From Nitrososphaerota archaeon (GTDB taxonomy: Archaea > Thermoproteota > EX4484-205 > JAAOZP01), in contig JAAOZP010000003.1 in NCBI GenBank assembly GCA_011605725.1, positions 9,032-73,031 of the forward strand: a stretch of 64,000 nt of DNA, read 5' to 3'. Within the stretch, counting starts at the first letter, position 1. Each line of letters begins with the position of its first letter. Below the pieces are notes generated by a model that saw only the letters and a list, made by a program, of their open reading frames with translations, was not told the DNA's origin and did no database searches. Position numbers and translations under genes: made by a program. Below are positions 13,787 through 47,564 of this stretch, in pieces.

Positions 13787-13901
13787 TTTTCAGCTTTTAC
13801 CGTAATTATTTTTCATCTTTTCAAGCTGAAATGAAAAAAAATGTATTCAGCTTCACAAAAAATAAAAACGGATTTCTGCGGAAACGGGAATCGTAAGGAT
13901 A

Positions 13902-14954
13902 ATGACTGTGGAAGAGAGGCTCCTTAGAAAAGCACTTGATCACCTTGAAAAACATAGAGGCATGAGGAGAAACGAGACTGATGATATTTTTGAAAGAAAA
14001 GCGCTAATTGTTTCGGAACAAGACATTTTAATGAGAAACTACCCAAGAAAGCACCCGAAGCTCGCATTCAATCCAGGCGCTCTCCTTCAAGGAGAAGTTC
14101 TGCATGTTTTCCCGCGGCTAATTTTCGACTATTACACTTACACGTCAAGCATAGGCAGGTTCTCCATAAATGTGGAAAGCTTGATTAACGGTGGCCTCAG
14201 CCTTCCTGTTGAAACGGACATCGTGATGTGGCCGAAGCTCCTCTGGGAATTCAGGGGCTGCGAAGACCCTCGTGTTTTTAAACAAGATGGAAAAATGCTT
14301 ATGCTGTACACCGGTTATGGTTATTTCTTAGAAAAGGATACGCTGAACACAAGCATCGTGCAGGCGTTTGCAGAGTTTGATAACGGTTTCTCAATAACAA
14401 GTAGAAAATACTTTAAAATAAAATCTATGAATGAGGACTATTTCATTCCGAAAAGCAACAAGGATTCCGCCTTCTTAAAAGTGAATAGTGAAGAAGCCGT
14501 TATTCTGACCCGCCCCCTGATAGGAAGCGTTGAAGTAGGCTGGAGGGCTGATGCGAATTTGAATGAAGCCGTAATGTATGAAAAAACAATGGAACCGTCT
14601 CTGCCTTTCGAGAATTGGGAGTTTAAAGTAGGCTGGTCGACAAACGCTATCCGGCTTTCCTCTAACGAGTTCTTGGTTGGTTGGCACGGCATTGTTAAAG
14701 AAGACTATTCATACAGGAATGGTTTAGCAATTCTCGACAACGATGGTCGATTACTAGCTGTAAGCAATTACCTGCTTGCCCCAAAGGGAGTGAGTGAGGA
14801 GTATGGTGATAGGCCTCACGTGATATTTGGCAACGGGCTGGTTTCCTACAAGGAGAGCCTTATCTGGGTTGGTGGTGTCAGCGATTATGCAATAGGATTC
14901 TTCGTCACGGAGCTTGAGAGAGCCTTGGGAAAATTGAAATGGGTTAGCGGATAG
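13902..14954 (+). CDS. GH130/DUF377-type beta-propeller glycosidase or phosphorylase-like protein.
   Basis: NPGALLQGEVLHVFPR… and GCEDPRVFKQDGKMLMLYTGY resemble GH130 (G-x-EDPR-i … y-x-x-Y-t-a). Confidence 0.5.
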   Translation: MTVEERLLRKALDHLEKHRGMRRNETDDIFERKALIVSEQDILMRNYPRKHPKLAFNPGALLQGEVLHVFPRLIFDYYTYTSSIGRFSINVESLINGGLSLPVETDIVMWPKLLWEFRGCEDPRVFKQDGKMLMLYTGYGYFLEKDTLNTSIVQAFAEFDNGFSITSRKYFKIKSMNEDYFIPKSNKDSAFLKVNSEEAVILTRPLIGSVEVGWRADANLNEAVMYEKTMEPSLPFENWEFKVGWSTNAIRLSSNEFLVGWHGIVKEDYSYRNGLAILDNDGRLLAVSNYLLAPKGVSEEYGDRPHVIFGNGLVSYKESLIWVGGVSDYAIGFFVTELERALGKLKWVSG

Positions 14955-14967
14955 TCTACAATACGCG

Positions 14968-17328
14968 TCAGTTCAGAACAATCATGTAATACGTATCTCC
15001 ATGACCCATAAATTCCTGGGTTTTTCCGTCGAATAGGCTTGTATGAACCTCTTTCACCACCTTGCCCTCCTCGTTTAATTGTAAAATTTTCAAAGGCTGT
15101 TTCCTCTCATCGAGATAAATAATTCTTGCTTTGAAGGGATAGTCCTTCGTCCCGGATACTTTGAAGACAACCTTTCCGTTTTCTTCAGAATGAAAAACGA
15201 GAGGATACTCCGTATAAAGTATAACTTTCCCATTGTTGAAAACATTGTACAGCCCGGTTGCAATCTCTATCGGATACCCTGCGCCATATATTTCTTGGCC
15301 TACTTGACCTGATTTCTTCCAACCGAACATGAGGTCTTCAAACGGAATATACCAGGATGGAACAAGCTCGCCGCAAGCCGTTTTTTCAGCAATCATTTCT
15401 CCCGGATATTCTGGAGGCATGGTGTATTGCGCTTTATATTTCAGAAGCTCGGCTACGAGTTTTTTAACATGCTTTGGAAGACTTTTTTCACCATTAGTGA
15501 GATATTCAAGCATATATCTAAAAACCTTTCCCTCTTCGCATGCAGCTACGTAGGATTCCGGCATAGCCATAGTTGAGAAAAATGTTCTAAAGTATTTCCC
15601 ATAACCATATTCACACTCGAAGAATACGCTGTGCCTAATTATGTTGGCTAAGGGTATGTAACTGATTTTCAAATATTTCTCATCGTTTGTCAATTGATAC
15701 AGCATTAAGGCGGCAACCGCACCCTCAGGCGTAGCAGTCATTTCATATGCATACTCGAAGCCTCTTTCCCCAATCCTCTCCACTGCTTTCTCAGCCTCCT
15801 CCAGGAACTTCCTATCGCCTGTTAACCTGTAGTACTGCAACATTAAGTATGCATAGACGCCTGTGACGTCGTATTCGTAAACAGGTTTTCCAGTACCCAT
15901 AATATCGTGATACTCACCGGTTAAAATATCTACAAACTGGGGAAACACGTAGGAAACTTTTCTCCCCAGCATTGTAACAATGTTTCTACTCTTAAGAACC
16001 ATTTCTCTAGCTACAGAGTTTTCCTCTGCCAAGTGACTGGTCCAGAGAATGGGGCAAACGAAATACCATGCGTCAATTACCAGCGGCCTCTTGTTTTCTC
16101 CTAATACTAAGCTTTCAAGTATACATCCCTCCCCGTTTCCATCTACGTTGGGTTTAAAAAAGTCTTGAAGACCTTTTTCAAGCCTCTCTATCAAATCGAG
16201 CCCTCTTCCGAACTTCTTATAGTATTTCTTAAGAGGAACAAGCACGTCTAACAGGGTTATTAGCTCTGCGTTTGATGACCTGGAATCCTTTACGTATGCC
16301 CTAAGATACTGCTTACCATTAATAGTCACCCAATTTTCAGGATGAAGAAGGTTTTCAATTTCTTTCGGAACTATTCCGGTTGCCCAGTCCACATATGTTG
16401 TTTCAGGCTTATCGATTTCATCGTATATTTCAGAGAACATCTCCAGGAAAAGCTCGCAGCATTCCACGTTATTCTCCGGTTCTACGGGAGCAAGATATAG
16501 AAAACTGTCCAGAATCGTTACTTCCACACCGGGAGGGATTTCTTCACTGATCGGAATTTTATATCCAAACTTTAAAATGCTGTTGAAACTTTTATGGTCA
16601 AAATCGATGCGGCGAGTAGGGTAATAACTTATCCACGGATAGGATAAGTCAACAGTGTATGCAGCATCGGTCTTCGTAAGCTCGTAATACTTGTTTAAAG
16701 AGGATAGGTTTTGAAAGTAGAGAATAGTGCTTTTAACAACTTCCTCCTCGTAAAGGAAGCAAAACTGGTTATACACGTTTCTCAATCCCCAGGCAGACCT
16801 GTGGTCAACAGTTCCCCTTAAATAGTCTACCCCGCGCCCAGGGATAAGCTTGCCGCTTGAAACATCGTAAAACTTAATCTCCTGGTCAGTGGTGAGTCCC
16901 CACCCTTCTGCAGAAACCTGAGGGAAAAAGCGGTAGTAAGGGACTTTCTGCACTTCCTCTCTCCCCTTCGTTGAAAGGTCGACTTTCCAATTTATTAACC
17001 CAGGCTTATTTTTGAAAAATCTAATTCTCACGGTGAAATCAGCCCATTCATGTCTACTTTCCAGTAGAACTATGATTTCTCTATCGTTTTCACTGACAGT
17101 TATTTCCCTTACGCGTGTAAGTATTTCTAAAGCCGCATTATCTAGCCCGAAGTTCGTAACAAGCACCTTATTCCCAGGGTTCTTCAGGCTGTAAATGAAT
17201 ATGAAGCCGTTTGTTTTTTCCTTATGATATCGAACCTCGTATTCGCCGCTTATAACGGTGAAATACTCTTTCCCCCAAGAGACAGTTGAAACCTCTTTAC
17301 CATCATCTTTTTTTTCTCTACATTGCAT
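14968..17328 (-). CDS. Large cytoplasmic hypothetical protein, possibly an (alpha/alpha)6-barrel glycoside hydrolase-like enzyme.
   Basis: 786-aa ORF. The central region (YAYLMLQYYRLTGDRKFLEEAEKAVERIGERGFEYAYE…) resembles six-hairpin glycosidase repeats. No exact family assigned. Confidence 0.4.
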   Translation of the reverse strand: MQCREKKDDGKEVSTVSWGKEYFTVISGEYEVRYHKEKTNGFIFIYSLKNPGNKVLVTNFGLDNAALEILTRVREITVSENDREIIVLLESRHEWADFTVRIRFFKNKPGLINWKVDLSTKGREEVQKVPYYRFFPQVSAEGWGLTTDQEIKFYDVSSGKLIPGRGVDYLRGTVDHRSAWGLRNVYNQFCFLYEEEVVKSTILYFQNLSSLNKYYELTKTDAAYTVDLSYPWISYYPTRRIDFDHKSFNSILKFGYKIPISEEIPPGVEVTILDSFLYLAPVEPENNVECCELFLEMFSEIYDEIDKPETTYVDWATGIVPKEIENLLHPENWVTINGKQYLRAYVKDSRSSNAELITLLDVLVPLKKYYKKFGRGLDLIERLEKGLQDFFKPNVDGNGEGCILESLVLGENKRPLVIDAWYFVCPILWTSHLAEENSVAREMVLKSRNIVTMLGRKVSYVFPQFVDILTGEYHDIMGTGKPVYEYDVTGVYAYLMLQYYRLTGDRKFLEEAEKAVERIGERGFEYAYEMTATPEGAVAALMLYQLTNDEKYLKISYIPLANIIRHSVFFECEYGYGKYFRTFFSTMAMPESYVAACEEGKVFRYMLEYLTNGEKSLPKHVKKLVAELLKYKAQYTMPPEYPGEMIAEKTACGELVPSWYIPFEDLMFGWKKSGQVGQEIYGAGYPIEIATGLYNVFNNGKVILYTEYPLVFHSEENGKVVFKVSGTKDYPFKARIIYLDERKQPLKILQLNEEGKVVKEVHTSLFDGKTQEFMGHGDTYYMIVLN

Positions 17329-17542
17329 AAAACTTCTTCTTTCCTTCTAGCTACTTAAGAGTTTACTTTCAGTGAAAAAAACTCTCCTTATTCACCTAGC
17401 GAGTGAAACATATTAACACTCTTCCTACTCTTCAGCTTTTAAAGCAGGCAGAACCAAGTTAGGTCTAGTCGACAATTTCTCCCTCGGCAAACAGGGTTTA
17501 CGCGATTTACTTGAATCCTGGAAAGAAAACGATCGAAACATT

Positions 17543-18781
17543 TTACTTGTCTTTCTCAGCTTGAAGAGTAGGGTTTACTTTCTCACGGAGTTTTCCTCTT
17601 GATCTGGCGGCGAGGAGGCTAGCTGAAATCGTCGCGATAATCCCAGTGAGCGCACTGTAAGTAAAGGCTTGAGTTCTACCAGCGTTGTCCCATATAAACC
17701 CTACTAGCGACATGCCTGCTAGATTTGCCAGGCCTACTGTGATGTAGAATACTCCATAGGCTGTTCCCCTAAGTTCTGGAGGAGCATACTTCGGGACTAA
17801 GGCTTTTGAAACCGTTTCGTATATTCCGAAATACAGGCCGTAAAAAACAATAAGCAGAACAGTTGCGGAAAGCCCGCTTAAGTAAGCAAAGAAAAGGGAG
17901 GTTGATGAGAAAAGTAGGAAGGACGTTGCAAGAAGAGGCTCCCTCCCGATTCTGTCGGAAAGAACTCCGGCAGGATAACCTACGAGGGTGTGAAACAGGT
18001 TAATCGCCATGTAGACTAGCGGCACAAGTTCAGGAGTGATTCCCAGCTCGGTTGAACGGACAAGTATGAATGAAAAATCGTAATACCCGGCTCCAAACAC
18101 GGCTAGTGCTGCTAAAAGAATGAGGAAATCTCCCTTCACGATTTGAGACGCTCCCTTAAGGAGTTGCGATTTCCTGGGAGGAGTCTCCACATCCACTACG
18201 AAAAGCCATAGAATGAGCAGAGCAATCACACCGGGTATGAATGAGACTATAAAGAGGAGTCTTGAACCAATTAAGGGTAAAAGAACTGCTGCAAGCAGGG
18301 GTCCGAGAATAGCACCAAGCTGGTCGAGCGTCCTATGGAGCCCAAAAGCCCTACCGGTTACTTTCTCATCTACAGATTGGCTGAGAAGAGCGTCACGCGG
18401 AGAAGTTCTTATCCCCTTGCCTGTTCTGTCCATAACTCTGACTGAAAAAGCCTCCGCTGGCGTTGTTGAAACCGCGAAAAGAGGTTTTGAAAGAGTTGAG
18501 AAAGCATAGCCCGTGAAAACTAAAGGCTTTCTTTTTCCAAGCCTGTCTGAAAGAAAACCGCTTACCATTCTGAAGAAATTGTTAGCAAGCTCTCCAGCAC
18601 CCTCAATAAGCCCGAGAATCATCCTCGTCCCGCCTAAATCCCTAACTATAAAGACAGGCAAGTAGCCCATGATCATTTCCGTCGAAACATCAGTAAAGAA
18701 GCTTACAAGCCCCATCGCGTAGACGTTTCTGAAACCAGGTTTCTCCGGGTCCCCGTGGAAACCTTGATTTGTTTTCTCCAC
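17543..18781 (-). CDS. Major facilitator superfamily (MFS) transporter.
   Basis: 12-TM topology. Motifs GFLSDRLGKRKPLV and LSDRIGREPLL (MFS motif A-like, G-x-LaD-r-x-G-r-[KR]). Confidence 0.7.
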   Translation of the reverse strand: MEKTNQGFHGDPEKPGFRNVYAMGLVSFFTDVSTEMIMGYLPVFIVRDLGGTRMILGLIEGAGELANNFFRMVSGFLSDRLGKRKPLVFTGYAFSTLSKPLFAVSTTPAEAFSVRVMDRTGKGIRTSPRDALLSQSVDEKVTGRAFGLHRTLDQLGAILGPLLAAVLLPLIGSRLLFIVSFIPGVIALLILWLFVVDVETPPRKSQLLKGASQIVKGDFLILLAALAVFGAGYYDFSFILVRSTELGITPELVPLVYMAINLFHTLVGYPAGVLSDRIGREPLLATSFLLFSSTSLFFAYLSGLSATVLLIVFYGLYFGIYETVSKALVPKYAPPELRGTAYGVFYITVGLANLAGMSLVGFIWDNAGRTQAFTYSALTGIIATISASLLAARSRGKLREKVNPTLQAEKDK

Positions 18782-19187
18782 GCGTATACTGCTGCTACTA
18801 ATAATATTAAACCTTTACTATGAAAGTATCTAATGCTCAGAGTATTTCTTAGCGCAGCGCGCACCATCATGCGTCAGACTGGATAGTCGATGGGAAGACT
18901 GGGCACGGGCTACATTAACTGTGCATGCTGATGTCAAATACCTGGAGGAGCCTTACAGGCCTAAGCCTGTTCGGGCTACTGACAATGGAAAACGGCTTAG
19001 TATAGTGGGTCCGCAGGCTGATAAAAGTTGGCCATACCCGTCCTGATTAGAACCGAAAACCTCTGTAACCATAAATAATCATAAAGTTGTTTAATATCAA
19101 GCTTAAAGTATTCAATATTTATAAAATAATGCTGATAGCGAATACAAAAAGCTATATAGGAAGCCTGCACAACTTAAAGCGATAGAG

Positions 19188-19586: not shown

Positions 19587-19743
19587 CCCCAGCCTAAGCT
19601 GAGACAAAACAGACCGGAACGGCGTAAACGGGAACCTGAAAAATATAGGATGAATCTTAGCGCGCGCTACCTCATTCCTTAGCTCGCTTTTTAAACGTCT
19701 AACAGGCTTAAGCGTCAACTGTGCCACGCTCTTTAAGAGTGAG

Positions 19744-25625: not shown

Positions 25626-25763
25626 GAGTAAAGCCGTTGGTGAACTGCTGCTTAGTTATTTAAGCCTTTCAAAATTAACCACTACAGCGCGCGCTATCCT
25701 ATGCTCTAATAAGCATGCTCGCTAAGCTTTTTAAACAACCAGTGCACGCTAAGCAGTAGCCAT

Positions 25764-26849: not shown

Positions 26850-26988
26850 AATGTAGCGCGCTATTCTTCAAGGTGAAGGTTTTTCGAAAAGGCTAACATT
26901 AGACTGTGGGGGAGAATGAAACATTAGCGGATAAGGGTGGGCAAGTATAGAATACTATTTGAACCGCTTCCGATGAAGCGCGTGCTTT

Positions 26989-28269
26989 TTATTCTCTGCG
27001 CGTAATCAACCACTTCCATAGTGGAGTGAATTTAATTTTTTCATTTTCAATTTCTAATTCATCATCATAACCCCAAGTTATTACGAGTAAATCTTTGCAT
27101 CTGAGTTCTACACAAGCCTTAAGCAACGCCCTTATCTTGCGTCTCTCGATTTCATCTCTACCATTAGCATAAGTAACCTGGATGAGTTGTTTAATTTTTG
27201 GGCCCTCCTTCAAGACGAAATCCACCTCATTTTGTTGACGATCCTTCCAGTAAAAGATTTCAAGCAAAGGATTATCATTTATCTTCCTCATCTCTTCTAT
27301 GAATACGGTGTTCTCCATCAGCCTTCCAAAATCCTCTGAAAACCGGACTACCTTTGAAATCCCCGTATCGCATATGTAAACCTTCCTTGGCCAAGATTCC
27401 CTCAGGGAGATTTTTTCCGAGTATTTTTTAACAAAGAAAACGGCCAGCGTATCCTGCAATTTTTCAACGTAATCGTAGACGGTGTTTTTACCCATTCTTA
27501 TACCGTTCGACTTAAGCAGGTTTACAAGCCTATTTACGCTAAACTCGTGCGAGAAACTTTGAAGTACTTGAGAAAAAACGAACTTTGCCACTTCAACGCT
27601 TTTAAGTTCATGTCTTTCTACAAAGTCTTTAAAGAAAATCATGTCCTGATACTCCTTCAAAATCTTCTCCTTATCCTCCTTCAACACGATTTCCGGAAAG
27701 CTGCCGAATTCAAGGAATTCTCTCAACAAGTTCCTTATTTTTGCTTTCTCCAGCCCGCTTAGGACTTCCTCCAACTCAACTCCTTTGGCTTTTAGAAATT
27801 CTCTGAACGAAAAGCCGAACAAAAGATAGGTTAAAGACCTCCCCCTCAGTTGAGTAGCCACTTCCCTGCTTAAGAGCTTGGAGGAGGAACCAGTAGCAAA
27901 AATTCTATAACCCCCTCTATTCAAGAGGGTTCTTACCATGGTTTCCCATTTCTCTACCCTTTGAACCTCGTCTAGAAAGATATCCGTTGGAACCCTGCCA
28001 GTTGTTTCGGTGAAGAGGTTTATCACATCCAGCACCTCATCAAACTTAACGTCTATCAAAGCGGAGTCTTCAAAATCTAGGTAGAGACAGCTTTCCTTAT
28101 TCCCCCTCATCAGCTGGTAGAAATAGAAGGTTTTACCAGCCCTCCGAGGCCCTACTATTGAAATAACTTTGTCTTTTACCGGCTTTACGGAGAGCTCTCT
28201 TTCCACTAGGGGTGGGAGATTTTTCGTGTACCAGTCTTCGATGTAGCTTCTCACCCTTGCTTCTTTCAT
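26989..28269 (-). CDS. AAA+ ATPase of the COG1373 / AAA_14 plus DUF4143 family.
   Basis: Walker A IVGPRRAGKTFYFYQL. Walker B IFLDEVQ. The C-terminal DUF4143-like region is present. Paralog of 35897..37192. Confidence 0.75.
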   Translation of the reverse strand: MKEARVRSYIEDWYTKNLPPLVERELSVKPVKDKVISIVGPRRAGKTFYFYQLMRGNKESCLYLDFEDSALIDVKFDEVLDVINLFTETTGRVPTDIFLDEVQRVEKWETMVRTLLNRGGYRIFATGSSSKLLSREVATQLRGRSLTYLLFGFSFREFLKAKGVELEEVLSGLEKAKIRNLLREFLEFGSFPEIVLKEDKEKILKEYQDMIFFKDFVERHELKSVEVAKFVFSQVLQSFSHEFSVNRLVNLLKSNGIRMGKNTVYDYVEKLQDTLAVFFVKKYSEKISLRESWPRKVYICDTGISKVVRFSEDFGRLMENTVFIEEMRKINDNPLLEIFYWKDRQQNEVDFVLKEGPKIKQLIQVTYANGRDEIERRKIRALLKACVELRCKDLLVITWGYDDELEIENEKIKFTPLWKWLITRRE

Positions 28270-28571
28270 AATGTAATAGTTGTTGAGACAATTGCTTATA
28301 AAATTTTCTCAGTCATAGAGAAATACGATATTAGCATCTGAAAGCCCGCAATATGGTTAAAAGGCCACTCTTAAACCAGAAATCGAATTTTGAGGAAAAG
28401 ATAGGCAGAATCAGGGTAGCGCGCGATTTTCTCTTAAATCCGAGAGACATGATGTGGCAAATCGACTTAACCGAAAAGTTCTTTTTGTTCACCTGAAACT
28501 ACTTGAACAGCTTGGAGTGTCGTCGTTACTTGCTTTAGCGCGCTCTACGGATTATCCCTCGGAATATTGCT

Positions 28572-28700
28572 TCAGCAGAAGACGCATCTCAGATTACAGC
28601 CAACGCAGTCAGCCGTCGCTGTACCCCCGTACCATCTGCCTCCCTCTGAACCTGTAGTACTTCCCCACACCCTCTTTCTCCACCATTCTTCTCGTCGCCT
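28572..28700 (-). pseudogene. 5' fragment of a QueE-like radical SAM gene, ending in a stop immediately after the CxxxCxxC motif.
   Basis: The C-terminal ~35 aa of the 81-aa ORF read …TTGSEGGRWYGGTATADCVGCNLRCVFC*. This matches the QueE N-terminal pattern (QGEG … f-v-R … GCNLRCxxC). No continuation exists in any frame downstream. Confidence 0.4.
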
Positions 28701-28840
28701 CAGCGAGAGCAACCTGGTCGTAACCCCTCTCCACAGGTAAACCTTGAGAATGGGCGCCATATAAACACCATGCTTGCAAACCCCCTGCCGGCTTATGATG
28801 CTTATTGCAACATTCATTGTAGAAGAGTAGAAATGCTATT

Positions 28841-29260
28841 CTAAACCTTAACGCCCCACGTGTTTCTAACCCTGTTCAGCAGCTTCTCCACAGCATCCTG
28901 GCTCCTCAGACTGTTCAAGCCTGCTCTGACGCTAACGTTAAGATCCTTGACAGGGATTTTACCTGTCTCCCACTTATCCTCGCTTAACACGAACAGTGGC
29001 TTGAACAGTATCCTGTAGGGGTATATGGCTCTTCCAACAACAGCCTCGTCGCGCCAGAGAATACTCTCCTCCATAGCTTTACCCTCGACGGATGCGAGGC
29101 CAACAATGCCGCGGACAGGGCTCGTAACGTAGAGGAAAAGCAGGTCTCCGCTAGCAACTTTTTCCCAAGTTTTCTTAAGCCTCTTGTTAACGCCCCACTT
29201 CCCTTTCTCCAGAGAAGTCTTCAGGTTGAGCGAAGACCCGGTTGCAACCCAAACATTCAT
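28841..29260 (-). CDS. EVE (PUA-like) domain protein, a predicted modified-base reader.
   Basis: …KGKWGVNKRLKKTWEKVASGDLLFLYVTSPVRGIVGLASVEGKA…YPYRILFKP… fits the EVE consensus (w-G … GDlvffY … givGiaev … R-i-f). Confidence 0.55.
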   Translation of the reverse strand: MNVWVATGSSLNLKTSLEKGKWGVNKRLKKTWEKVASGDLLFLYVTSPVRGIVGLASVEGKAMEESILWRDEAVVGRAIYPYRILFKPLFVLSEDKWETGKIPVKDLNVSVRAGLNSLRSQDAVEKLLNRVRNTWGVKV

Positions 29261-29453: not shown

Positions 29454-30305
29454 TCAAACATTGTTTGCTATTTCCCTTAGCTTTTCTCCAACAACTTTGA
29501 GGAAATCTTCAAAATCCCTTTGAGGAAGCTCTATTAATAGCCTTCTTTCGAAAGGGTCTTCAAGAAATCCCTCTACTATTTCCAATCCTTTTCTATTCCT
29601 CTCAAGGTTGCTTCTATACTTCCTGTAATAGAGCGATGCTCTTACTTTCTCAAGAATTTCTTTAGCTAAGTCCTCTATTTTGTAACCGTGTTTTGAGAGC
29701 ATGAATAAATCATAGAAGTCTCTGAGTTTTTGAGCTCTCCTCGTCAGTATAGCTCTTACTTTTTCACACAGGATTTCTCTTTCGTCGTAAGCCATTATTT
29801 GAAGAGGCTTATAGAAGTCTATGAATTCTTCGAAATATGCTTTTTCATCTGTTGATAATTTAGCCCCGTCCAACAAGGTTTTCACAGTGATTTTCTTTAT
29901 CGGGAAAAGCAATTTCTCTATGAAGTTTACTTGAATCTTTATCAGCTCCGAGTTCTTCCAGAGCTTGAACGTCACCATTCTACCTCCACCACCAAACTCG
30001 ATGAAATTCCTGTTTTTAAGCTCGGCTTCAAACCTAAGGCCTAATTTCTCTGAAACTGTTTTCAAAAAAGAGGCGAAATCCTTTATCTCAGCTAAGAGCT
30101 TTCTCCTCAACTTTTTCTCCCCTAAACCGGCCCACATTTCCTGCTCTCTCCATGTAAAGTCTAGGTCAACGCTAAACCTGTAGTAGCCGAAGTAACATTT
30201 AGTTAAACAGCTACCTCCCTTGAAAAGGTATTTATTGAAGAGGGGTGAGGAGCAGAAATCTTTAAGCACTCTATGCAGTATTATGTCTGATTCTATTAAG
30301 CTCAC
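29454..30305 (-). CDS. AbiEii/DUF1814-family nucleotidyltransferase (type IV TA / abortive-infection toxin).
   Basis: FKGGSCLTKCYFGYYRFSVDLDFTW matches the AbiEii motif (GGTAL…RFSEDiDf). Confidence 0.65.
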   Translation of the reverse strand: MSLIESDIILHRVLKDFCSSPLFNKYLFKGGSCLTKCYFGYYRFSVDLDFTWREQEMWAGLGEKKLRRKLLAEIKDFASFLKTVSEKLGLRFEAELKNRNFIEFGGGGRMVTFKLWKNSELIKIQVNFIEKLLFPIKKITVKTLLDGAKLSTDEKAYFEEFIDFYKPLQIMAYDEREILCEKVRAILTRRAQKLRDFYDLFMLSKHGYKIEDLAKEILEKVRASLYYRKYRSNLERNRKGLEIVEGFLEDPFERRLLIELPQRDFEDFLKVVGEKLREIANNV

Positions 30306-30344
30306 ATCCTTGATACCCGATTTTCAATTATGAATGAAACAAAC

Positions 30345-30974
30345 TCAGATAAGCCGGGCATTCCTAATAACCCTTTCAACACTCTTTGGATACAGTTTAA
30401 GATACGCTTCGATTTTCCTTCTATCCAGGTTCCTTGCATATTCGCGTATTGTTGAAATTATTTTCTCCTCCGGTAAACCACGGTATCTGAAGACATAAGT
30501 AAAGTCTAGAAGAGTCTTCTCCGCGTCGGAGAACCTAATGCCGTCTCTATCTACCACCCCTAGGCTGAGAAGCCTGCTCTTAAGCTTAAGAAACTTCACC
30601 TTTTCACCGGCTATCTCTATTTCCTTAGGCCGATAGATCTCATTATTCACCACGAAGATCGTCCTGAAAAACTCATGAGTAAGACCATTAAGCCTGAGCG
30701 CAGTGTAGAGCCCGAAGTACCAGTTAAGCCCAAGCCTGTTCAACCCTAGAGAGATAACCCTATAAGGGTCTACGGATTTCTTGAGTTTAAACTCCTCGAT
30801 AGTCTTCACATAATATAGGCCTCTCAGGATCCTGATGAAATACCCATAGGATATCATGAAATTAATCGTATTAACATGGTTCACCCGGAACCTTTTACAG
30901 TTTTTCTCCACCTCCTCTCTAGTAATAACGCTGCCTCCGAACCTCGATAAAAGGAACTTCGTTACAATTCTCAT
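30345..30974 (-). CDS. AbiEi-like antitoxin / transcriptional regulator partner of AbiEii.
   Basis: Sits immediately upstream of AbiEii on the same strand with a 40-bp gap. Length 209 aa with a predicted N-terminal wHTH-like region. Assignment is by gene context. Confidence 0.4.
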   Translation of the reverse strand: MRIVTKFLLSRFGGSVITREEVEKNCKRFRVNHVNTINFMISYGYFIRILRGLYYVKTIEEFKLKKSVDPYRVISLGLNRLGLNWYFGLYTALRLNGLTHEFFRTIFVVNNEIYRPKEIEIAGEKVKFLKLKSRLLSLGVVDRDGIRFSDAEKTLLDFTYVFRYRGLPEEKIISTIREYARNLDRRKIEAYLKLYPKSVERVIRNARLI

Positions 30975-31266: not shown

Positions 31267-32244
31267 ATGAATAAGACGCCAGAGTATTTTCTAGTCTCCG
31301 TGTCCACTCGAGAAAACCTTGAACTGTGCGAAAAGCATGCTTTAGCCGGTTTCACAAACAGCGTCAACGGGCTCTGGACGTTCTTAGACATTGACGAGGG
31401 GGATTTCATATCTTTCCTTTACGGCGCAAGAGTGTATAACCTTTACAGGGTCTTAAGGAAAGAGGCTTTCAAGAATGCGGACAGGCTTCCCCCGTGGCCT
31501 CCTGTCACGTTCAAGATGTCGGGCAAAACCTATTACTTTCCCTTCAGGCTGCATCTTGAGCAGGAGAGGGTTTTAAACGAGCCTATGGTGAGGCCTGAAT
31601 TCGCATATGTTGCTGAAAACCTGCTTTTAAGAGGAGGATATAGGAAGACGCATTTCCAGGCGGATACAGTAACCCTGTATAATGTTTCCAACATGGGTTC
31701 TCGTTTCGAAGGTGAAAACGAGCAGCTTCATCTAGGAAAGGAGGTTTTTCAGCCCAAGATCGTTTTTAGAAAAGGGAAGGAGGATTCAGAAAGGTTTCGC
31801 TTCCATGAACTTGTTTTACAGAGCTTGGTTAGAAAGAAGATTAGAGACGGGGCGCTGAGCATGATTCTGGAACACTTTGAAGTAAGCCACCCGCCCGGTG
31901 AGTTCGAGGTTCTGGGGGAAAAGGCGCTGCCAGAGGGGTTCGTAGATATTTTCATTAAAATGAAGCATCCGGAGGGAGGCAATTTATACCTTGTGATTGA
32001 AGTTAAAACAGGTGGAGCAAGCCCTCAGGAAGTGGCTCAACTCGAGTCATACATAAATGAGCTTGGAAGCGAATGTAAAGGGGGAGTCCTAGTGGCGAAA
32101 AGCTTTTCCAAGAGGACAATGGCTGATTGTAAATCTAAGAGGATTCTGCCGGTTAAATACTATTTTAAAAACTTGGATGAGGAAAAAGAGTATGCTTATG
32201 AGGAATTATTGGGTGCCTTACGGTTGGAACCGATGAACCTCTAA
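31267..32244 (+). CDS. PUA-like (EVE/ASCH-type) domain fused to a Mrr-like PD-(D/E)xK nuclease. A putative modification-dependent endonuclease.
   Basis: The N-terminus ([23 protein letters not shown]…[18 protein letters not shown]) is PUA/EVE-like. The C-terminus ([38 protein letters not shown]) carries a D…E-V-K nuclease core. Confidence 0.45.
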
Positions 32245-32543: not shown

Positions 32544-32704
32544 ACGTTGATTTCGAACTCCTGTCTTTATTAGCACGCGCTGTAGGCGCGCGCGGCTCTT
32601 CAGGGTCTTTCTATCGGTGAGGATGCTGATTTAACCTAGCGTGCGCTCGAGAAAAGAAGTTGGATTGGTAAAACTTTAAATACTAGTAAAACTTTTCCAA
32701 AAAC

Positions 32705-35437: not shown

Positions 35438-35612
35438 TTGGGGAATGCAGTCTTTCGCCGACACTAGCCCGTATTCATCACTGCCACTATGCTTTCCCTC
35501 TCAGGTTTAAAGACCGATGAAGCTAACCCTACAATCATAGTGGGTAGGCGCGCTAAAGGTTGTTGTCAAGTGAAGAAGTGTTATCGAGGAAAAGCAGCGC
35601 GTTAGCGCGCGC

Positions 35613-35680
35613 GTTGAGACTGTAAAGCCTAGGGAGAAACTGTTAATAGTAATGAGTGAAATCATCGAGGTCATAACCTA
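35613..35680. repeat. Direct repeat copy 1: a 68-bp perfect repeat, with ~25 bp of additional flanking similarity.
   Basis: gttgagactgtaaagcctagggagaaactgttaatagtaatgagtgaaatcatcgaggtcataaccta is identical to the stretch at 37486..37553. Confidence 0.85.
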
Positions 35681-35896: not shown

Positions 35897-37192
35897 TCAT
35901 GATTCGAGTAGCCATTTCCACAAGGGTAGGAACCTAATCCTCCTGCCATCATGCTTCTCCACTCCTTCATAGTCCCAAGTGATCACGGTTAGGTCGCTAC
36001 AGTCCAGCTCCTTAGAAGCCTTCACTAGCGCGCTTATTTCCCTCTCCTTCGTATCGAAATCCTCTATATTGTAGCATACTTGTATTAATTGCTTAATCTT
36101 TCCACCGCTCTTTATAATGAAGTCCACCTCCTTATTATTGGAGCTGAAATAGAACAAGTTTTCGTTTGGAGTGAAACCTTTCTTCAAGAGTTCTGAGAAA
36201 ACCAGGTTCTCCATAAGCCTGCTCGTGCTTTCAACTCCATTGACGATGAGCAGGCCATTATCCACCAAGTATATCTTTGGAATAGTCTGCTCCACTTCCT
36301 TATAGGACCTAGAATACTTCCTTAAAGTGCATAAAACTAACGAGTCTGAAAAATACTCAACATAGTTGTAAAGAGTGTTCTTACTAACCTTCATCCCCAA
36401 GGATTTAATATAGTTATAAAACTTATGGATTGAAAAATACGTGGACGACACTAAACTCTTAACCATTAATCTAAGGACTCTTATGTTCTTAACCTTGAAC
36501 CTCTCTATTATGTCCCTATAGATAGTAACCTCAAATATTTCCTTCAAGATCTTTTCCCTTTCATTTTCGAATAGTACTACTTCAGGATAGCTTCCCCTCA
36601 TGTATTTCTGAAGGAGATTCAGAAGCATAGCTTTCTTTAAAGAGGAAAGATATTTTTCCGCTTCGAAGCCCTTTGCTCTCAAGAACTCTTTGAAGTTAAA
36701 AGGATAAATGTAGTAGGGAAGAGTCCTTCCCCTTAGACTTGTCGCGACCTCCATGGATAGAAGCTTGGAGGAAGACCCGCTGACATACACTTGAATTCTC
36801 TCGCTATCTACAACGCTGCGCACAAACCTTTCCCAATAAGGGACGTTCTGAACCTCGTCTAGGAAAAGGTAAACCTTTTGCCTCTTATTTTCGGGGTAAA
36901 TCTCGTAAAAAATATTGAGCATGCTCCTTAAATCCTCTATGGTGCAGCCGATTAGCAAGTCGCTTTCAAGGTTAACGTAAAGTATTCTGCTTTTATCAAT
37001 ATTGTTACGCAGTAATTCCCCTATAACCTGAAACATGAAGAACGTTTTACCTGCTCTCCTCGGCCCAATTATAGATATGGCTCTTCTTATCGGAAGATCA
37101 GCTTCAATCCTAAGGTCTCTTTTCACAAGTTTAGGTAACTCGGATTCTTGGAAATCTTTTATCATTCTTATCCAGGTCTCTCGCGTTACCAT
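35897..37192 (-). CDS. AAA+ ATPase of the COG1373 / AAA_14 plus DUF4143 family, paralog of 26989..28269.
   Basis: Walker A IIGPRRAGKTFFMFQV. Walker B LFLDEVQ. Shares its C-terminal region with the paralog (…KQLIQV…ITW.Y…PLWKWL). Confidence 0.75.
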   Translation of the reverse strand: MVTRETWIRMIKDFQESELPKLVKRDLRIEADLPIRRAISIIGPRRAGKTFFMFQVIGELLRNNIDKSRILYVNLESDLLIGCTIEDLRSMLNIFYEIYPENKRQKVYLFLDEVQNVPYWERFVRSVVDSERIQVYVSGSSSKLLSMEVATSLRGRTLPYYIYPFNFKEFLRAKGFEAEKYLSSLKKAMLLNLLQKYMRGSYPEVVLFENEREKILKEIFEVTIYRDIIERFKVKNIRVLRLMVKSLVSSTYFSIHKFYNYIKSLGMKVSKNTLYNYVEYFSDSLVLCTLRKYSRSYKEVEQTIPKIYLVDNGLLIVNGVESTSRLMENLVFSELLKKGFTPNENLFYFSSNNKEVDFIIKSGGKIKQLIQVCYNIEDFDTKEREISALVKASKELDCSDLTVITWDYEGVEKHDGRRIRFLPLWKWLLES

Positions 37193-37485
37193 CGTATCAT
37201 GTATAGGGAAACTAATTTAAAAAGTTTCCCTCTTTAGAGAACCATCCCATCTATCTCGACGAATCATTCACATATGCCGTCTGAGTGCTTTATTAAATTA
37301 AGTCCTCTGTTTTATGCGTCTTAAGAATCCGTAATTGTTGTACTTCTAGCGCGCTAGTATCCTTCTGGGAGAATTTCCTTCACCCTATCTATGTTCCAGC
37401 CGTCTCTTTTCATCAACACAAAATCACAACCCCTTGTAGCGCGCTAAGAATCTTTAGCTCAGAGCAAGAAACATAAAAAGAAGTC

Positions 37486-37553
37486 GTTGAGACTGTAAAG
37501 CCTAGGGAGAAACTGTTAATAGTAATGAGTGAAATCATCGAGGTCATAACCTA
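37486..37553. repeat. Direct repeat copy 2, identical over 68 bp to 35613..35680.
   Basis: Same 68-mer. The downstream ~25 bp are similar with a 2-bp indel. Confidence 0.85.
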
Positions 37554-38210: not shown

Positions 38211-38626
38211 TTATCGCGAAATCTTAGCGAGCGCGCGCTCTTTAAGTTTTAGCTCTCCAGACTCGTCTCTCAGATTTAGCAAATCCATGTCAAAAGTAAT
38301 GATGCAACTTGCCTTAGCCTCATAGGCGACATTGAGGAACTTGTCATCATCAGGGTCTCTGCAAAGCTTAAATTCCTCTTTTGGTGCAGTCTTCAAAGCA
38401 CTTCTATAGATCTTATCCAGAATAAGATAGACTCTGGAAAAATCGATTCTATCAGAAACCTTGTTGAATTGGATGGCTTTCAAATACTCCTTAAAAAATG
38501 CTGTCTGAAAATAGCCACTATTAGTTCGCCATTAAGCACCCTGATGAGAATATCCTTCGACGCTCTGCTATCGATGAGTCCAGCTATTAATACAGAAGTA
38601 TCTAAAACTATTTTATCCTCGCCCAC
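38211..38626 (-). pseudogene. vapC: PIN-domain (VapC-like) toxin gene with a frameshift.
   Basis: The N-terminal part (GTG start ~38626) reads VGEDKIVLDTSVLIAGLIDSRASKDILIRVLNGELIVAIF… and stops. The C-terminal part continues in another frame as the 38211..38483 ORF (…DPDDDKFLNVAYEAKASCIITFDMDLL). Confidence 0.5.
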
Positions 38627-44730: not shown

Positions 44731-45840
44731 TCACTTAGAGTAGCAATTACAAGTGCCTCGCCTATATGGGATGCCTAGTTTTTCAAGCATCGATACCGTC
44801 TCCTTACAAATACTTACTTTATCATCACCGTAGCCAAAAGCAGAGAGCTTATCCAGCATATACTCATATATCCTTCTCCTTAGTTCAGACGGTAATTTCT
44901 TTCCCCAACCAGTATCTTCTTTAAAGAACTTAGCCCAGCCCATATCTACCCCTGCTTTTTTAGCGTAGTATATTGTTTTCTTTAACCCCCTTGGCGTCCC
45001 AAGTATTATCTTAGCAGGTTCCACCTCAGACATGATTCTGTATAAAATATCTTCATAATGCGTTTCCCAGTCTTCTATAGGGAATATTGGGTCGATCCTT
45101 ATCCTCACCTCATACCCTGTTTCGTAAACCATTTTCGCAGCCTGTATCCTTTGTTCCGGCGGAGCTGCTTTTTTCTCCCAGATTTTTGCAACCTCTACGG
45201 CGTTAATACTCCAAGCGCATACAACCTGTTTCTTAACATGATCAGGCTTATTTAGCAAAAATTTAATACTGTTTGCCCCCGCTTTACTTAGCAGAACGAT
45301 CCTGTGCTTATGCTGCTCTCCAAACTTGTCAACTATTTCACTCATTAAGGGAGGGTTCATCAGGGAATCAGATAATTCGCCGCTGTTGAATAAAGCAGGC
45401 TTGCCACCGTTAAAATGAGGATCGTTAAATGCCTCGTCCAACGCATTGAATACGTAATGTAGTTTCACGTAGCTGGGTTTCATGTTCCCTTTCTTTGTTC
45501 CTCTCAAATAGCAATAAGAGCAATCGAAAGGACAGCCGAAAGCCCATCTCAACTCCCAGAAGGGGCCGCATGCTATGTCTGGAGGAGTTTTCGCGAATAA
45601 TTTCACTATGCCTTGACCGTATTCGGTTCGAAACGGCTTACGAACAGGCTCTTTCACTACGGCTTCAGGATGAGTGATCGACGCAATAATCTTCGGGGGG
45701 AAGAAATCAGGAATCCTCCTGCTCGACTTAGCGATTATTTCCGCCTCTTTCTTCCTTATTGTTCGCCAAGCCTTTAAAGCTGCTTCTCTATGTTTCTCCT
45801 TCTCTGTAAGCATCTTCCCCCTTCCTTTACTGTCTGCCAC
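44731..45840 (-). CDS. Radical SAM protein of the COG1533 (SplB-like 'DNA repair photolyase') type.
   Basis: GCPFDCSYCYL is CxxxCxxC followed by Tyr, as in COG1533 (GC-x-h-x-C-x-YCY). Length 369 aa. Confidence 0.6.
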   Translation of the reverse strand: MADSKGRGKMLTEKEKHREAALKAWRTIRKKEAEIIAKSSRRIPDFFPPKIIASITHPEAVVKEPVRKPFRTEYGQGIVKLFAKTPPDIACGPFWELRWAFGCPFDCSYCYLRGTKKGNMKPSYVKLHYVFNALDEAFNDPHFNGGKPALFNSGELSDSLMNPPLMSEIVDKFGEQHKHRIVLLSKAGANSIKFLLNKPDHVKKQVVCAWSINAVEVAKIWEKKAAPPEQRIQAAKMVYETGYEVRIRIDPIFPIEDWETHYEDILYRIMSEVEPAKIILGTPRGLKKTIYYAKKAGVDMGWAKFFKEDTGWGKKLPSELRRRIYEYMLDKLSAFGYGDDKVSICKETVSMLEKLGIPYRRGTCNCYSK

Positions 45841-46915: not shown

Positions 46916-47111
46916 TTAACAGCTAGATCTCCTTTGTTTCTGGATTTTTCCTCAAATTCAAAAAGTACAATAATGATAAATTAACTTAACCGGGAAATGA
47001 GTTCTTCTCTAGGTGTAGCGTGTGCTCTGAGGATGGTTATTGCATGCAACTCATTATTGTGCAGAGATATTAACGAATTCTGACACTAATTCCTCTATAA
47101 CATTCGGCGCG

Positions 47112-47564
47112 CTAGTGTAGTCCTAGCTTACTTTCAAAGCTCCTAAATTCCTTCTTTTTCTCATAAAGAGCGTTAATCTCTTCCAAAGTTATTATTTTAA
47201 GCTCATCAATTATTTCTTGAATCACTCCAGAAGCAATGTTATAAGCAACACTAGTTTGATCTCTTGTTGTTTCTAAAATTGGTTTTGCATTCCACATATC
47301 CCTGGCATGCTTAAGTTTTGTTAAAGCTTCTTCAAGGTTCCCGCGAATATGCACTTCAAAGACAATGTAAGGATCTGCTCTTTGAAGCCTTTTCCATGCA
47401 ACGTCAATCTTGTAGCCATCAAGCTCTATTTCTTTTATGCTAATCTTTTCTTGAAGTAACCCTATCTGGTGAATTAAGTCTTTAACTGTTTCATGATCCA
47501 GTTCCGTTTTATATGGTATCTTTTTATTCCTTGCTTCATAATTCTCTTCAATTCTCTTGAACAT
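47112..47564 (-). CDS. Hypothetical protein in an AT-rich patch, possibly a small PD-(D/E)xK-like fold.
   Basis: 150 aa. DGYKIDVAWKR…IVFEVHIRG loosely resembles a D…E-x-K arrangement. Weak. Confidence 0.35.
   Translation of the reverse strand: MFKRIEENYEARNKKIPYKTELDHETVKDLIHQIGLLQEKISIKEIELDGYKIDVAWKRLQRADPYIVFEVHIRGNLEEALTKLKHARDMWNAKPILETTRDQTSVAYNIASGVIQEIIDELKIITLEEINALYEKKKEFRSFESKLGLH

What the first reader, a model, noticed from the sequence alone, without database searches (positions are those of the whole stretch)
28572..29260. EVE-domain reader gene followed by a QueE-like radical SAM gene truncated right after its CxxxCxxC motif
The 81-aa ORF ends …TTGSEGGRWYGGTATADCVGCNLRCVFC followed immediately by a stop. 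The last ~35 residues align with the N-terminus of 7-carboxy-7-deazaguanine synthase (QueE: QGEG…GCNLRCxxC). The rest of the gene is absent in all frames. Directly upstream on the same strand is a standalone EVE (PUA-like) domain protein, a fold that binds modified bases. 7-deazaguanine pathways supply both archaeosine in tRNA and DNA 7-deazaguanine modification systems. A decayed QueE next to an EVE reader at the edge of a defense island could be the remnant of a DNA-modification (Dpd-like) island, or the scar of an insertion. The DUF4143 ATPase gene lies downstream.
Basis: partly seen in the sequence, partly recalled or inferred. Interest (0 to 1): 0.6.

Follow-up and report, generated by a model that had tools for sequence, protein, structure and literature searches.

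The report
Decayed radical SAM gene, not QueE
The short ORF ending in CxxxCxxC is the frameshifted, stop-interrupted and truncated stump of an uncharacterised archaeal radical SAM gene (not QueE), cut off when a defence-ATPase segment replaced its 3' part in a highly rearranged gene island; it is an ordinary pseudogene with no sign of a 7-deazaguanine system.

Summary
An intact EVE-like gene (28841-29260, -) is followed by an 81-codon ORF ending ...GCNLRCVFC + TGA.

Only the last ~26 codons of that ORF are in the true gene frame. After removing one extra G and reading TGA as Trp, the 62-codon stump (28547-28734) is 90% identical to the N-terminus of intact ~254-aa proteins. These belong to a widespread, uncharacterised archaeal radical SAM family. 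The family scores far below the QueE cut-offs, and QueE is not among its top 50 fold matches.

A near-identical strain (L015, 97.5% nt) carries EVE followed by the intact gene. That comparison shows three lesions in the window:
- a +1 G in a G-run;
- TGG>TGA;
- truncation after codon 62.

The truncation marks where a segment carrying a DUF4143/AAA_14 ATPase replaced the rest of the gene and part of a ParE-like toxin gene. Four independent metagenome assemblies share the stump and show further decay.

EVE and this radical SAM gene each persist without the other, so the pairing looks incidental. The window has no queC/D/E or tgt/dpdA.

By-product: a TA(GC)3-4TA palindrome is strongly enriched in the island and lies on many strain-specific breakpoints, including this truncation.

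The parts
28841..29260 (-). Intact 139-aa EVE-like (PUA-like, UPF0310-type) gene
   Evidence: Pfam EVE 22.4 bits, E 1.3e-4. NCBIfam PRK00809 E 3e-10. 19/21 homologues match Pfam EVE. PDB PH1033/MJECL36. dN/dS 0.17-0.24 against six orthologues.
28759..28765 (-). TTTATAT, TATA-like box about 25-31 nt upstream of the ancestral GTG start of the radical SAM gene (inferred)
   Evidence: Read from the sequence. The upstream region is 94-97% identical to that of the intact alleles in L011 and L015. Promoter function was not tested.
28547..28734 (-). Radical SAM pseudogene: codons 1-62 of a ~254-codon gene, GTG start at 28732-28734
   Evidence: tblastn gives two HSPs in two frames, joint E 8e-23. 94% nt identity to the intact gene on L011 and 97.5% to L015. 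Corrected peptide is 90% identical to P0034 and P0139 over 62 aa.
28639..28644 (-). G-run GGGAGG carrying one extra base: +1 frameshift
   Evidence: Intact alleles have 5 nt here. The window and L002 have 6, and L017/L018 have 7 (alignment; coordinates).
28572..28574 (-). TGA replacing the invariant Trp codon TGG of the CVFCW motif
   Evidence: All intact alleles have TGG. All four pseudogene haplotypes have TGA. W54 is invariant in the family.
28572..28817 (-). The 81-aa ORF of the finding: a chance chimera of 5' region, wrong frame and true frame
   Evidence: No gene with this product is on record. JGI gene callers called a 41-aa ORF in the other frame. Its ATG and frame are not kept in L017/L018.
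28537..28544 (.). Palindrome AGCGCGCT at the truncation junction. Homology to the intact gene ends at 28547
   Evidence: L002, L017 and L018 have AGCGCGCGCT + 18 nt + AGCGCGCT here. The window has lost 26 nt between the two copies.
26985..28546 (-). Segment that replaced the 3' part of the radical SAM gene. It carries the AAA_14/DUF4143 ATPase gene (26989-28269)
   Evidence: Pfam AAA_14 E 9e-33 and DUF4143 E 6e-16. PADLOC PDC-S01 E 1e-88. In L015 and L014 this segment is absent and the intact gene is followed by a ParE-like toxin gene.
26863..26984 (+). ParE/RelE-like toxin pseudogene fragment (residues ~33-74, with a frameshift and a stop) on the far side of the ATPase segment
   Evidence: tblastn with the intact L015 toxin, joint E 5e-6. 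The L015 toxin matches Pfam ParE_toxin, E 1.4e-6.
26855..26862 (.). Palindrome AGCGCGCT where homology to L015 and L014 ends
29454..30974 (-). AbiEi (30345-30974) and AbiEii (29454-30305) pair upstream of EVE. This is context, and it varies between strains
   Evidence: PADLOC AbiEi E 2.5e-83 and AbiEii E 2.2e-94. AbiEii is absent in L006 and broken in L011/L013.

Best explanation
Window 28547-28734 (-) is a dead remnant of a ~254-codon gene. That gene belongs to a widespread, uncharacterised archaeal radical SAM family with the N-terminal signature RKYYRF-RGGRWYGGIATADCVGCNLRCVFCWS..PRD.P.

In the ancestor of this Brockarchaeota-like lineage the order was EVE - radical SAM - ParE-like toxin/antitoxin. 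A rearrangement then replaced everything from codon 63 of the radical SAM gene to the middle of the toxin gene. The replacing segment is ~1.56 kb and carries a DUF4143/AAA_14 ATPase gene. A short GC palindrome was left at the junction.

The orphaned 5' stump then picked up a +1 G slip in a G-run, a TGG>TGA nonsense change and substitutions at invariant residues. The 81-aa ORF is a by-product of these lesions and encodes nothing functional.

The EVE-like gene is intact, under purifying selection and independent of the stump.

Shown: the homology, the three lesions, the intact allele in near strains, and the flanking toxin fragment. Inferred: the order of events, and that the stump has no function.
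For: Family identity:
- The frameshift-corrected peptide finds family members at E down to 1e-26.
- The family has 2791 members at E<1e-10, ~250 aa long, from Korarchaeota, Thermofilum, Desulfurococcus, Nezha-, Hada- and Bathyarchaeia.
- The corrected peptide is 90% identical to P0034 and P0139 over all 62 residues.

Intact alleles:
- L011 carries the intact allele at 94% nt identity over window 28865-28547. This pins down the +1 G, the TGG>TGA change and the end of homology at 28547.
- L015 has EVE, a 107-nt spacer and the intact gene at 97.5% nt identity, followed by an intact ParE-like toxin.
- A fragment of that toxin lies at window 26863-26984, beyond the ATPase gene.

Decay:
- Four independent assemblies (L001, L002, L017, L018) share the TGA, the truncation and the R24G change.
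- They differ in G-run length (6 or 7), and only the window and L001 have the 26-nt deletion.
- Invariant R24 and I38 are substituted in the window.
- dN over the 62 codons is 0.042, against 0.010-0.014 among intact copies.

Other:
- No 3' part of the gene is anywhere in the window.
- EVE dN/dS is ~0.18.
Against: - The function of the intact family is unknown, so what the strain lost cannot be stated.
- Whether the genome has another intact copy could not be checked, because only the window and partial contigs were readable.
- The old promoter region is conserved, so the stump may still be transcribed. A regulatory or small-peptide role is unlikely but not formally excluded.
- The order of events (replacement first, point lesions later) is inferred, not shown.
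Confidence: 0.93

Rival explanations
1. One reading: the fragment is a decayed QueE and, with the EVE reader, is the remnant of a 7-deazaguanine (Dpd-like) DNA-modification island.
For: - QueE is also a small radical SAM enzyme whose cluster loop lies near the N-terminus.
- B. subtilis QueE appears among weak PDB profile hits, E 1.4e-4.
- TIGR03365 gives 26.6 bits to the intact allele.
- An EVE-like gene is adjacent, and the region is a defence island.
Against: - QueE model scores are 26.6 against a cut-off of 206.1, and 19.5 against 260.1. These are no better than MoaA, NrdG or viperin models.
- The family motif RWYGGIATADCVGCNLRCVFCWS has no QGEG and no C-D-T/S after the cluster.
- Foldseek's top 50 hits are BlsE, SkfB, anSME, NifB, LipA, viperin, TYW1 and MoaA. 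QueE is not among them.
- No queC, queD, tgt or dpdA was found in 64 kb.
- Family members elsewhere have no Que, Tgt or ArcS neighbours.
Confidence: 0.02
2. EVE and the radical SAM enzyme once formed a functional two-gene module, for example a nucleic-acid modifier plus a reader of the modified base, and this strain has lost it.
For: - The two genes are adjacent and co-directional, 107 nt apart, in L015. The same order is seen in L014.
- The last 24 nt of EVE are still attached upstream of the intact gene in L011/L013.
- The family's N-terminal 80 residues align weakly with the tRNA enzyme Taw1/TYW1, E 6e-5.
Against: - Each gene persists without the other. EVE is intact with the radical SAM gene dead (window, L002, L017, L018) or absent (L006-L010). 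The radical SAM gene is intact with EVE deleted (L011/L013).
- Family loci in Korarchaeota, Thermofilum and Hadarchaea have no EVE.
- EVE's recurrent neighbour is a NERD-domain gene (L008, L009, L014), and in L014 NERD sits between EVE and the radical SAM gene.
- The radical SAM gene has its own TATA-like box.
Confidence: 0.08
3. The 81-aa ORF is a real small protein, or the truncated N-terminal fragment is a functional Fe-S peptide.
For: - The ORF is open and is identical in L001.
- It keeps a CxxxCxxC motif.
- The upstream TATA-like box is intact.
Against: - About 55 of its 81 codons are out of frame relative to the conserved gene, and their composition is W/R-rich.
- No family hit, and it is not on record as a called gene.
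- In L017/L018 the ATG region is replaced and the G-run differs, which destroys the ORF.
- The strains also differ by a 26-nt indel just after it.
- The stump lacks all of the TIM-barrel strands that bind SAM.
Confidence: 0.02
4. The frameshift, stop and truncation are sequencing or assembly errors in a metagenome contig.
For: - The frameshift lies in a G homopolymer, a typical error site.
- The Korarchaeal relative on L003 is also split by a frameshift.
Against: - The same TGA and the same truncation junction occur in four assemblies from different samples (L001, L002, L017, L018).
- The junction is covered by long contigs of 90-168 kb.
- The flanking toxin fragment independently records the same replacement.
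Confidence: 0.01

Closest known systems
Unnamed ~250-aa archaeal radical SAM family (database names 'radical SAM protein', 'uncharacterized Fe-S cluster-containing radical SAM superfamily protein', often mislabelled 'MoaA'); e.g. P0034, Ca. Korarchaeum cryptofilum P0022, Thermofilum pendens P0049
   Same: - The N-terminal 62 residues are 90% identical to P0034, including RKYYRF, RWYGG, ATADCVGCNLRCVFC(W)S and PRDNP.
- Nucleotide identity to intact alleles in near strains is 94-97.5%.
   Different: Only 24% of the gene is left. It carries a frameshift, a stop and substitutions at invariant R24 and I38. It is a pseudogene, not a working member.
QueE (7-carboxy-7-deazaguanine synthase)
   Same: A small radical SAM enzyme with the CxxxCxxC loop near the N-terminus, and a GCNL-C-C-like loop sequence.
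   Different: - Far below all QueE model cut-offs.
- Different flanking motifs.
- Not among the top fold matches.
- No pathway neighbours.
Taw1/TYW1 (4-demethylwyosine synthase, MJ0257, PH1705)
   Same: - Shares the C-x-F-C-W motif and a weakly alignable N-terminal extension, profile E 6e-5 over residues 8-84.
- Fold hit at rank 25.
   Different: TIGR03972 gives 14 bits against a cut-off of 318. The family is ~60 residues shorter. Taw1's second cluster site was not examined.
EVE / UPF0310 PUA-like domain proteins (PF01878; PH1033, MJECL36)
   Same: The upstream 139-aa protein matches at superfamily level and is a stand-alone single-domain protein like PH1033.
   Different: - It forms a narrow subfamily of its own in Brockarchaeota/Thermoproteota MAGs.
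- The ligand is unknown.
- The AlphaFold model is unreliable, pLDDT 43, so the fold was not confirmed.
Gene remnants in defence/toxin-antitoxin islands (variable-region gene decay)
   Same: - A truncated gene at the edge of a replaced segment.
- Neighbours are AbiE, PDC-S01/DUF4143, ParE, MazF and PIN modules.
- Presence and absence vary strongly between strains.
   Different: Many breakpoints carry a specific short palindrome, TA(GC)3-4TA. This is not a described feature of such islands as far as I know.

Membership tests
QueE | Scores above the curated cut-off of an NCBIfam QueE equivalog model | tested here: not met
   Intact allele P0034: TIGR03365 26.6 bits (cut-off 206.1) and TIGR03963 19.5 bits (cut-off 260.1). 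The window ORF has no hit at all.
QueE | Sequence around the cluster typical of QueE (QGEG...G....F.R..GC...C..CD[TS], recalled from knowledge of the family) | tested here: not met
   The family consensus is RGGRWYGGIATADCVGCNLRCVFCWS..PRD.P. The window reads GGRWYGGTATADCVGCNLRCVFC*SNIPRDNP.
QueE | Fold closest to solved QueE structures | tested here: not met
   The AlphaFold model of P0034 has pLDDT 91.6. Foldseek's top 50 PDB hits contain no QueE.
Dpd / 7-deazaguanine DNA modification island | Presence of dpdA/tgt-like, queC and queD (preQ0 pathway) genes nearby | tested here: not met
   No such Pfam families were found among the called genes covering window ~18.8-63 kb or among the ten ORFs of at least 120 aa in 0.3-18.8 kb. 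Shorter ORFs there and the last ~1 kb of the window were not scanned.
Radical SAM superfamily (PF04055) | CxxxCxxC cluster motif plus the partial TIM-barrel core | tested here: inconclusive
   The motif is present in the stump. The intact allele passes Pfam Radical_SAM: the related full-length sequence scores 76.8 bits against a cut-off of 29.5, and precomputed PF04055 hits exist for P0022-P0141. The window copy lacks the whole barrel, so it is a member by descent only.
~250-aa archaeal radical SAM family (unnamed) | N-terminal signature RKYYRF..RWYGGIATADCVGCNLRCVFCWS..PRD.P | tested here: met
   E values down to 1e-26. 90% identity over 62 aa. Alignment A2.
~250-aa archaeal radical SAM family (unnamed) | Full-length open reading frame of ~250 codons | tested here: not met
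   Frameshift, TGA and truncation after codon 62.
EVE domain (PF01878) | Pfam gathering score | tested here: inconclusive
   The window protein scores 22.4 bits against a cut-off of 23. 19/21 close homologues match at E<0.01, best 1.7e-6. Several are annotated as EVE with PF01878.
EVE domain (PF01878) | PUA-like beta-barrel fold | tested here: inconclusive
   Sequence links to the solved UPF0310 proteins PH1033 and MJECL36, E 7e-4 and 2.6e-3. The AlphaFold model was too poor to test the fold, pLDDT 43.
RaSEA (radical SAM enzyme for archaeosine formation) | Gene set or complex with ArcS (PMC11298593) | tested here: inconclusive
   None of the family loci inspected shows an ArcS/TGT-family neighbour. 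No RaSEA sequence was available for direct comparison.
Pseudogene | Disabling lesions relative to an intact orthologue, shared by descent, with continuing decay | tested here: met
   lesions and shared ancestry; 26-nt indel; raised dN.

The most novel reading that the evidence does not exclude
The 18.8-39.2 kb island may be an array of one- or two-gene cassettes (toxin-antitoxin pairs, AbiE, DUF4143 ATPases, EVE and others) bounded by a short palindrome, TA(GC)3-4TA. The palindrome would act as a recombination site for an unidentified trans-acting enzyme. That would be an integron-like gene-shuffling platform in a Brockarchaeota-like archaeon, with the radical SAM stump as one of its scars.

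Support:
- AGCGCGC occurs 33 times against 4.9 expected, and GCGCGCGC 9 times against 0.5.
- The motif is absent from the first 18.8 kb of the window.
- Most sites are intergenic.
- By my count, about 6 of ~14 strain breakpoints lie within 3 nt of a site. Two of these are inside genes whose intact alleles lack the site.

Not excluded: microhomology-mediated deletion between dispersed copies of a regulatory or methylation-site palindrome, with no dedicated machinery.
Probability: 0.15. Interest if true: 0.65.

Novelty: already known. Interest (0 to 1): 0.2.

Why it matters
As posed, the finding would have pointed to a lost 7-deazaguanine DNA-modification system in an archaeon. It does not. It is a routine gene remnant in a fast-turning-over defence/toxin-antitoxin island, and annotation should mark 28547-28734 as a pseudogene rather than call a small ORF.

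Three smaller points have some value:
- The family the stump belongs to is ~60% identical across archaeal phyla, yet it has no known function and is often mislabelled MoaA. This makes it a reasonable target for tRNA/RNA-modification or cofactor studies.
- EVE's recurrent partner in relatives is a NERD nuclease-related protein, not the radical SAM enzyme.
- The short GC palindrome at the rearrangement junctions is unexplained and could mark a recombination mechanism.

Tried and rejected
- **Structured RNA in the G-rich 28550-28780 stretch:** Rfam gave nothing at gathering score over the whole window and nothing meaningful at E<=10 locally. No tRNAs were found.
- **Direct family scans of the 81-aa ORF:** Pfam and NCBIfam gave nothing. 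A phmmer search of the PDB gave only non-significant Taw1 hits. That still supplied the useful lead that reading continues past the TGA.
- **RaSEA (archaeosine radical SAM) as the family's identity:** papers were searched and read. No ArcS neighbours were found, and no sequence was available to compare, so this stays unresolved.
- **COG5014 literature search:** uninformative.
- **AlphaFold of the EVE protein:** it failed, pLDDT 43, so no fold search was run on it.
- **The idea that the neighbouring 325-aa NucS_C-like protein has an EVE-like N-terminus:** rejected, hhalign probability 0.1%.
- **The idea that the two DUF4143 genes are copies of one mobile element:** rejected. They share 41.5% aa identity, and the flanks share nothing except the palindromes.
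- **Look-up of the 1476-aa ORF:** not on record.

Full report
**1. What is at the coordinates**

On the minus strand there is an intact 139-codon ORF (28841-29260). After a 23-nt gap comes an 81-codon ORF (28572-28817) ending ...TATADCVGCNLRCVFC-TGA. The AAA_14/DUF4143 ATPase gene follows at 26989-28269. The stretch is not a known RNA: Rfam found nothing and there are no tRNAs. The 81-aa ORF has no Pfam or NCBIfam match at E<=1.

**2. The ORF is a chimera of frames**

Translating all frames showed that another minus-strand frame reads ...GYDQVALAEATRRMVEKEGVGKYYRFRG... It also showed that the sequence after the TGA continues SNIPRDNP. The window is identical to JGI contig Ga0311297_1014352, where gene callers called a 41-aa ORF in that other frame and not the 81-aa ORF.

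I joined the two frames at the G-run and read TGA as Trp. This peptide found a real family at E down to 1e-26, with sequences such as ...RKYYRFRGGKWYGGIATADCVGCNLRCIFCWSNTPRDNP.... tblastn with a full-length relative confirmed two HSPs in two frames (residues 3-29 and 29-60, joint E 8e-23). Nothing beyond residue 60 is found anywhere in the 64 kb.

**3. What the gene was**

- The family has 2791 members at E<1e-10. They are ~250 aa long and come from Korarchaeota, Thermofilum, Desulfurococcus, Nezha-, Hada- and Bathyarchaeia, Methanomethylicia and others. They are named only 'radical SAM protein' or, wrongly, 'MoaA'.
- It is strongly conserved, with 67% mean column identity over 36 diverse sequences.
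- It matches only the generic Pfam Radical_SAM model and no NCBIfam equivalog. The best score is archaeal MoaA at 33-51 bits against a cut-off of 325. QueE models score 26.6 against 206 and 19.5 against 260.
- A confident AlphaFold model (pLDDT 91.6) gives only generic radical SAM core matches: BlsE, SkfB, anSME, NifB, LipA, viperin, TYW1 at rank 25, and MoaA. QueE is not in the top 50.
- A profile search of PDB sequences ranks anSME (2e-6), Taw1 (6e-5, over the N-terminal 80 residues) and then B. subtilis QueE (1.4e-4).
- Loci of the family in five other lineages show no Que, Tgt, ArcS or EVE neighbours.

The QueE assignment is therefore not supported. The function of the family remains unknown.

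**4. The intact allele and the lesions**

The corrected 62-residue peptide is 90% identical to P0034 and P0139. P0034 lies on L011, whose DNA is 94% identical to window 28865-28547. A metagenome scan with P0034 gave L015. This contig is 97.5% identical to window 29255-28547. It carries EVE, a 107-nt spacer, the intact 254-codon gene, GCGCGCGC, and then a ParE-like toxin with its antitoxin.

The alignment of four pseudogene haplotypes and four intact ones shows:
- a G-run of 5 nt in intact genes, 6 in the window and L002, and 7 in L017/L018;
- TGG>TGA at the invariant Trp of CVFCW;
- loss of homology after ...GATAATCCGT (28547);
- R24G in all pseudogenes;
- window-only P>Q, G>V, I38T and F>I substitutions and a 26-nt deletion.

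dN over the 62 codons is 0.042, against 0.010-0.014 among intact copies. The lesions recur in assemblies from four different samples, so they are not assembly errors.

**5. How the gene was cut**

In L015 and L014 the gene is followed by the ParE-like toxin gene. In the window a frameshifted, stop-containing fragment of that toxin (residues ~33-74) lies at 26863-26984 (+), directly beyond the ATPase gene.

So a ~1.56-kb segment (26985-28546) carrying the DUF4143 ATPase replaced ~825 nt of the ancestral locus (L015 709-1533). PADLOC classes this ATPase as candidate defence family PDC-S01, E 1e-88. The replaced DNA comprised the 3' 578 nt of the radical SAM gene, the spacer and part of the toxin gene.

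**6. Is EVE linked to it?**

EVE is a real gene. Its dN/dS is 0.17-0.24. It matches EVE/UPF0310 at superfamily level, although the fold could not be modelled.

The locus has many haplotypes:

| Loci | Gene order |
|---|---|
| L015 | EVE - rSAM |
| L014 | Dam-like MTase - EVE - NERD - rSAM |
| L011/L013 | AbiEii' - MazF-fragment cassette - last 24 nt of EVE - rSAM |
| window, L002 | EVE - pseudo-rSAM - DUF4143 |
| L017/L018 | EVE - cassette - pseudo-rSAM |
| L006 | EVE - 1.3 kb of other fragments (a weak HsdS C-terminal match, E 1.3e-3, and a 136-aa ORF) - DUF4143 |
| L008/L009 | EVE - NERD |

Each of the two genes survives without the other. EVE's recurrent neighbour is NERD. The adjacency is therefore best read as incidental, although an ancestral EVE-rSAM order in this lineage is real.

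**7. Context**

- The organism is a Brockarchaeota-like archaeon.
- The region is a defence/toxin-antitoxin island. It holds AbiEi/AbiEii and PIN, MazE, ParE and two DUF4143 ATPases.
- Further on are DUF1156-DUF499-SNF2/PLD, GmrSD and another radical SAM gene with an SPL-family gene.
- No 7-deazaguanine pathway gene was found in the window. The called genes over ~18.8-63 kb and the ten ORFs of at least 120 aa in 0.3-18.8 kb were checked; shorter ORFs there were not.

**8. By-product: the palindrome**

The truncation junction carries AGCGCGCT (28537-28544). L002, L017 and L018 have AGCGCGCGCT + 18 nt + AGCGCGCT there, and the window has lost the 26 nt between the two copies.

The same palindrome sits at other strain breakpoints:
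- at the AbiEii break in L011/L013;
- on both sides of a 177-nt L006-specific insert;
- at the empty site of a 707-nt L002-specific DUF433/DUF5615 cassette (window 35605-35612);
- at the end of homology to L015 (26855-62);
- within 3 and 23 nt of the two ends of the block shared with L006.

Counts and distribution:
- AGCGCGC occurs 33 times against 4.9 expected, and GCGCGCGC 9 times against 0.5.
- The consensus is TA(GC)3-4TA with no wider conservation.
- Sites are mostly intergenic (my reading of their positions against the ORFs, not a computed count).
- They are absent from the first 18.8 kb and dense between 18.8 and 39.2 kb.
- The Korarchaeal loci have none.

By my rough count about 6 of 14 distinct breakpoints lie within 3 nt of a site, where chance would give about 0.3 to 1.5 (my estimate). 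Several breakpoints have no palindrome: the NERD and MazF-cassette insertions, the AbiEii deletion in L006, and 26984/5. No integrase was seen in the island. Whether this reflects a dedicated recombination system or microhomology between dispersed copies is open.

**9. Verdict**

This is an ordinary pseudogene created by segment replacement in a variable island, so interest is low. The most novel reading not excluded concerns the palindrome-bounded cassettes, not the finding itself.

Noticed in passing
window 18857-39150 (e.g. 19659-19668, 25686-25695, 26855-26862, 28418-28424, 28537-28544, 32586-32593, 35604-35612, 37348-37355, 38230-38239); also L002, L006, L011/L013, L015: The short palindrome TA(GC)3-4TA is strongly over-represented: AGCGCGC 33 against 4.9 expected, GCGCGCGC 9 against 0.5. 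It is mostly intergenic and absent from window 1-18856. It lies on or within 3 nt of about 6 of ~14 strain-specific breakpoints. Two of these are inside genes whose intact alleles lack it.
   Followed up: partly
window 26863-26984 (+): Frameshifted, stop-containing fragment of a ParE/RelE-like toxin gene. The gene is intact in L015 (1489-1752) and L014. This is the second scar of the same replacement event.
   Followed up: yes
L008 6001-7168; L009 3775-4942; L014 6292-7460: In three relatives the EVE gene is immediately followed by a ~240-aa gene that I read as membrane-anchored (not tested) and that has a NERD (nuclease-related) domain (Pfam E 4.5e-22). This is a more conserved pairing than EVE-radical SAM. 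NERD is absent from the window.
   Followed up: partly
window 31267-32244 (+); L006 3792-4772; L008 4530-5633: A 325-aa protein with a C-terminal NucS_C/Mrr-like PD-(D/E)XK nuclease domain recurs near the EVE gene in three genomes. Its N-terminal half has no detectable family. hhalign says it is not EVE-like.
   Followed up: partly
window 29454-30974 (-): AbiEi/AbiEii pair (PADLOC E 2.5e-83 and 2.2e-94) that varies between strains. AbiEii is absent in L006, called shorter in L002, and broken at window 29693 in L011/L013, where a palindrome plus a MazF-fragment cassette follows.
   Followed up: partly
window 35612-35680 and 37485-37553: A perfect 69-nt direct repeat (about 95 nt at ~95% identity) flanks the second DUF4143 ATPase gene (35897-37192). 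L002 has a 707-nt DUF433/DUF5615 toxin-antitoxin cassette inserted exactly at 35603-35612.
   Followed up: partly
L003 8001-8754: The Korarchaeum-like orthologue of the radical SAM gene is itself split into 74-aa and 164-aa ORFs by a frameshift. This is either a sequencing error or an independent pseudogene.
   Followed up: no
window 45926-62000: A second defence cluster: DUF1156 methyltransferase (52908-55718), DUF499 (49908-52856), an SNF2/PLD helicase (56274-59600), GmrSD_N (47637-49373), and an unrelated 329-aa radical SAM gene (45926-46915) next to an SPL-family gene (44731-45840).
   Followed up: no
family of P0022-P0141 (alignment A2): The ~250-aa radical SAM family is ~60% identical across several archaeal phyla. 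It has a conserved N-terminal extension weakly like Taw1. An ATPase_2 (PF01637) gene is often upstream (Korarchaeota, T. pendens). It has no assigned function and is frequently mis-annotated as MoaA.
   Followed up: partly
L006 6420-7737: In the closest other species the stump is replaced by 1.3 kb holding a weak match to the C-terminal end of a type I restriction HsdS subunit (Pfam Methylase_S E 1.3e-3, below cut-off) and a 136-aa ORF. The same spot has therefore been overwritten more than once.
   Followed up: partly
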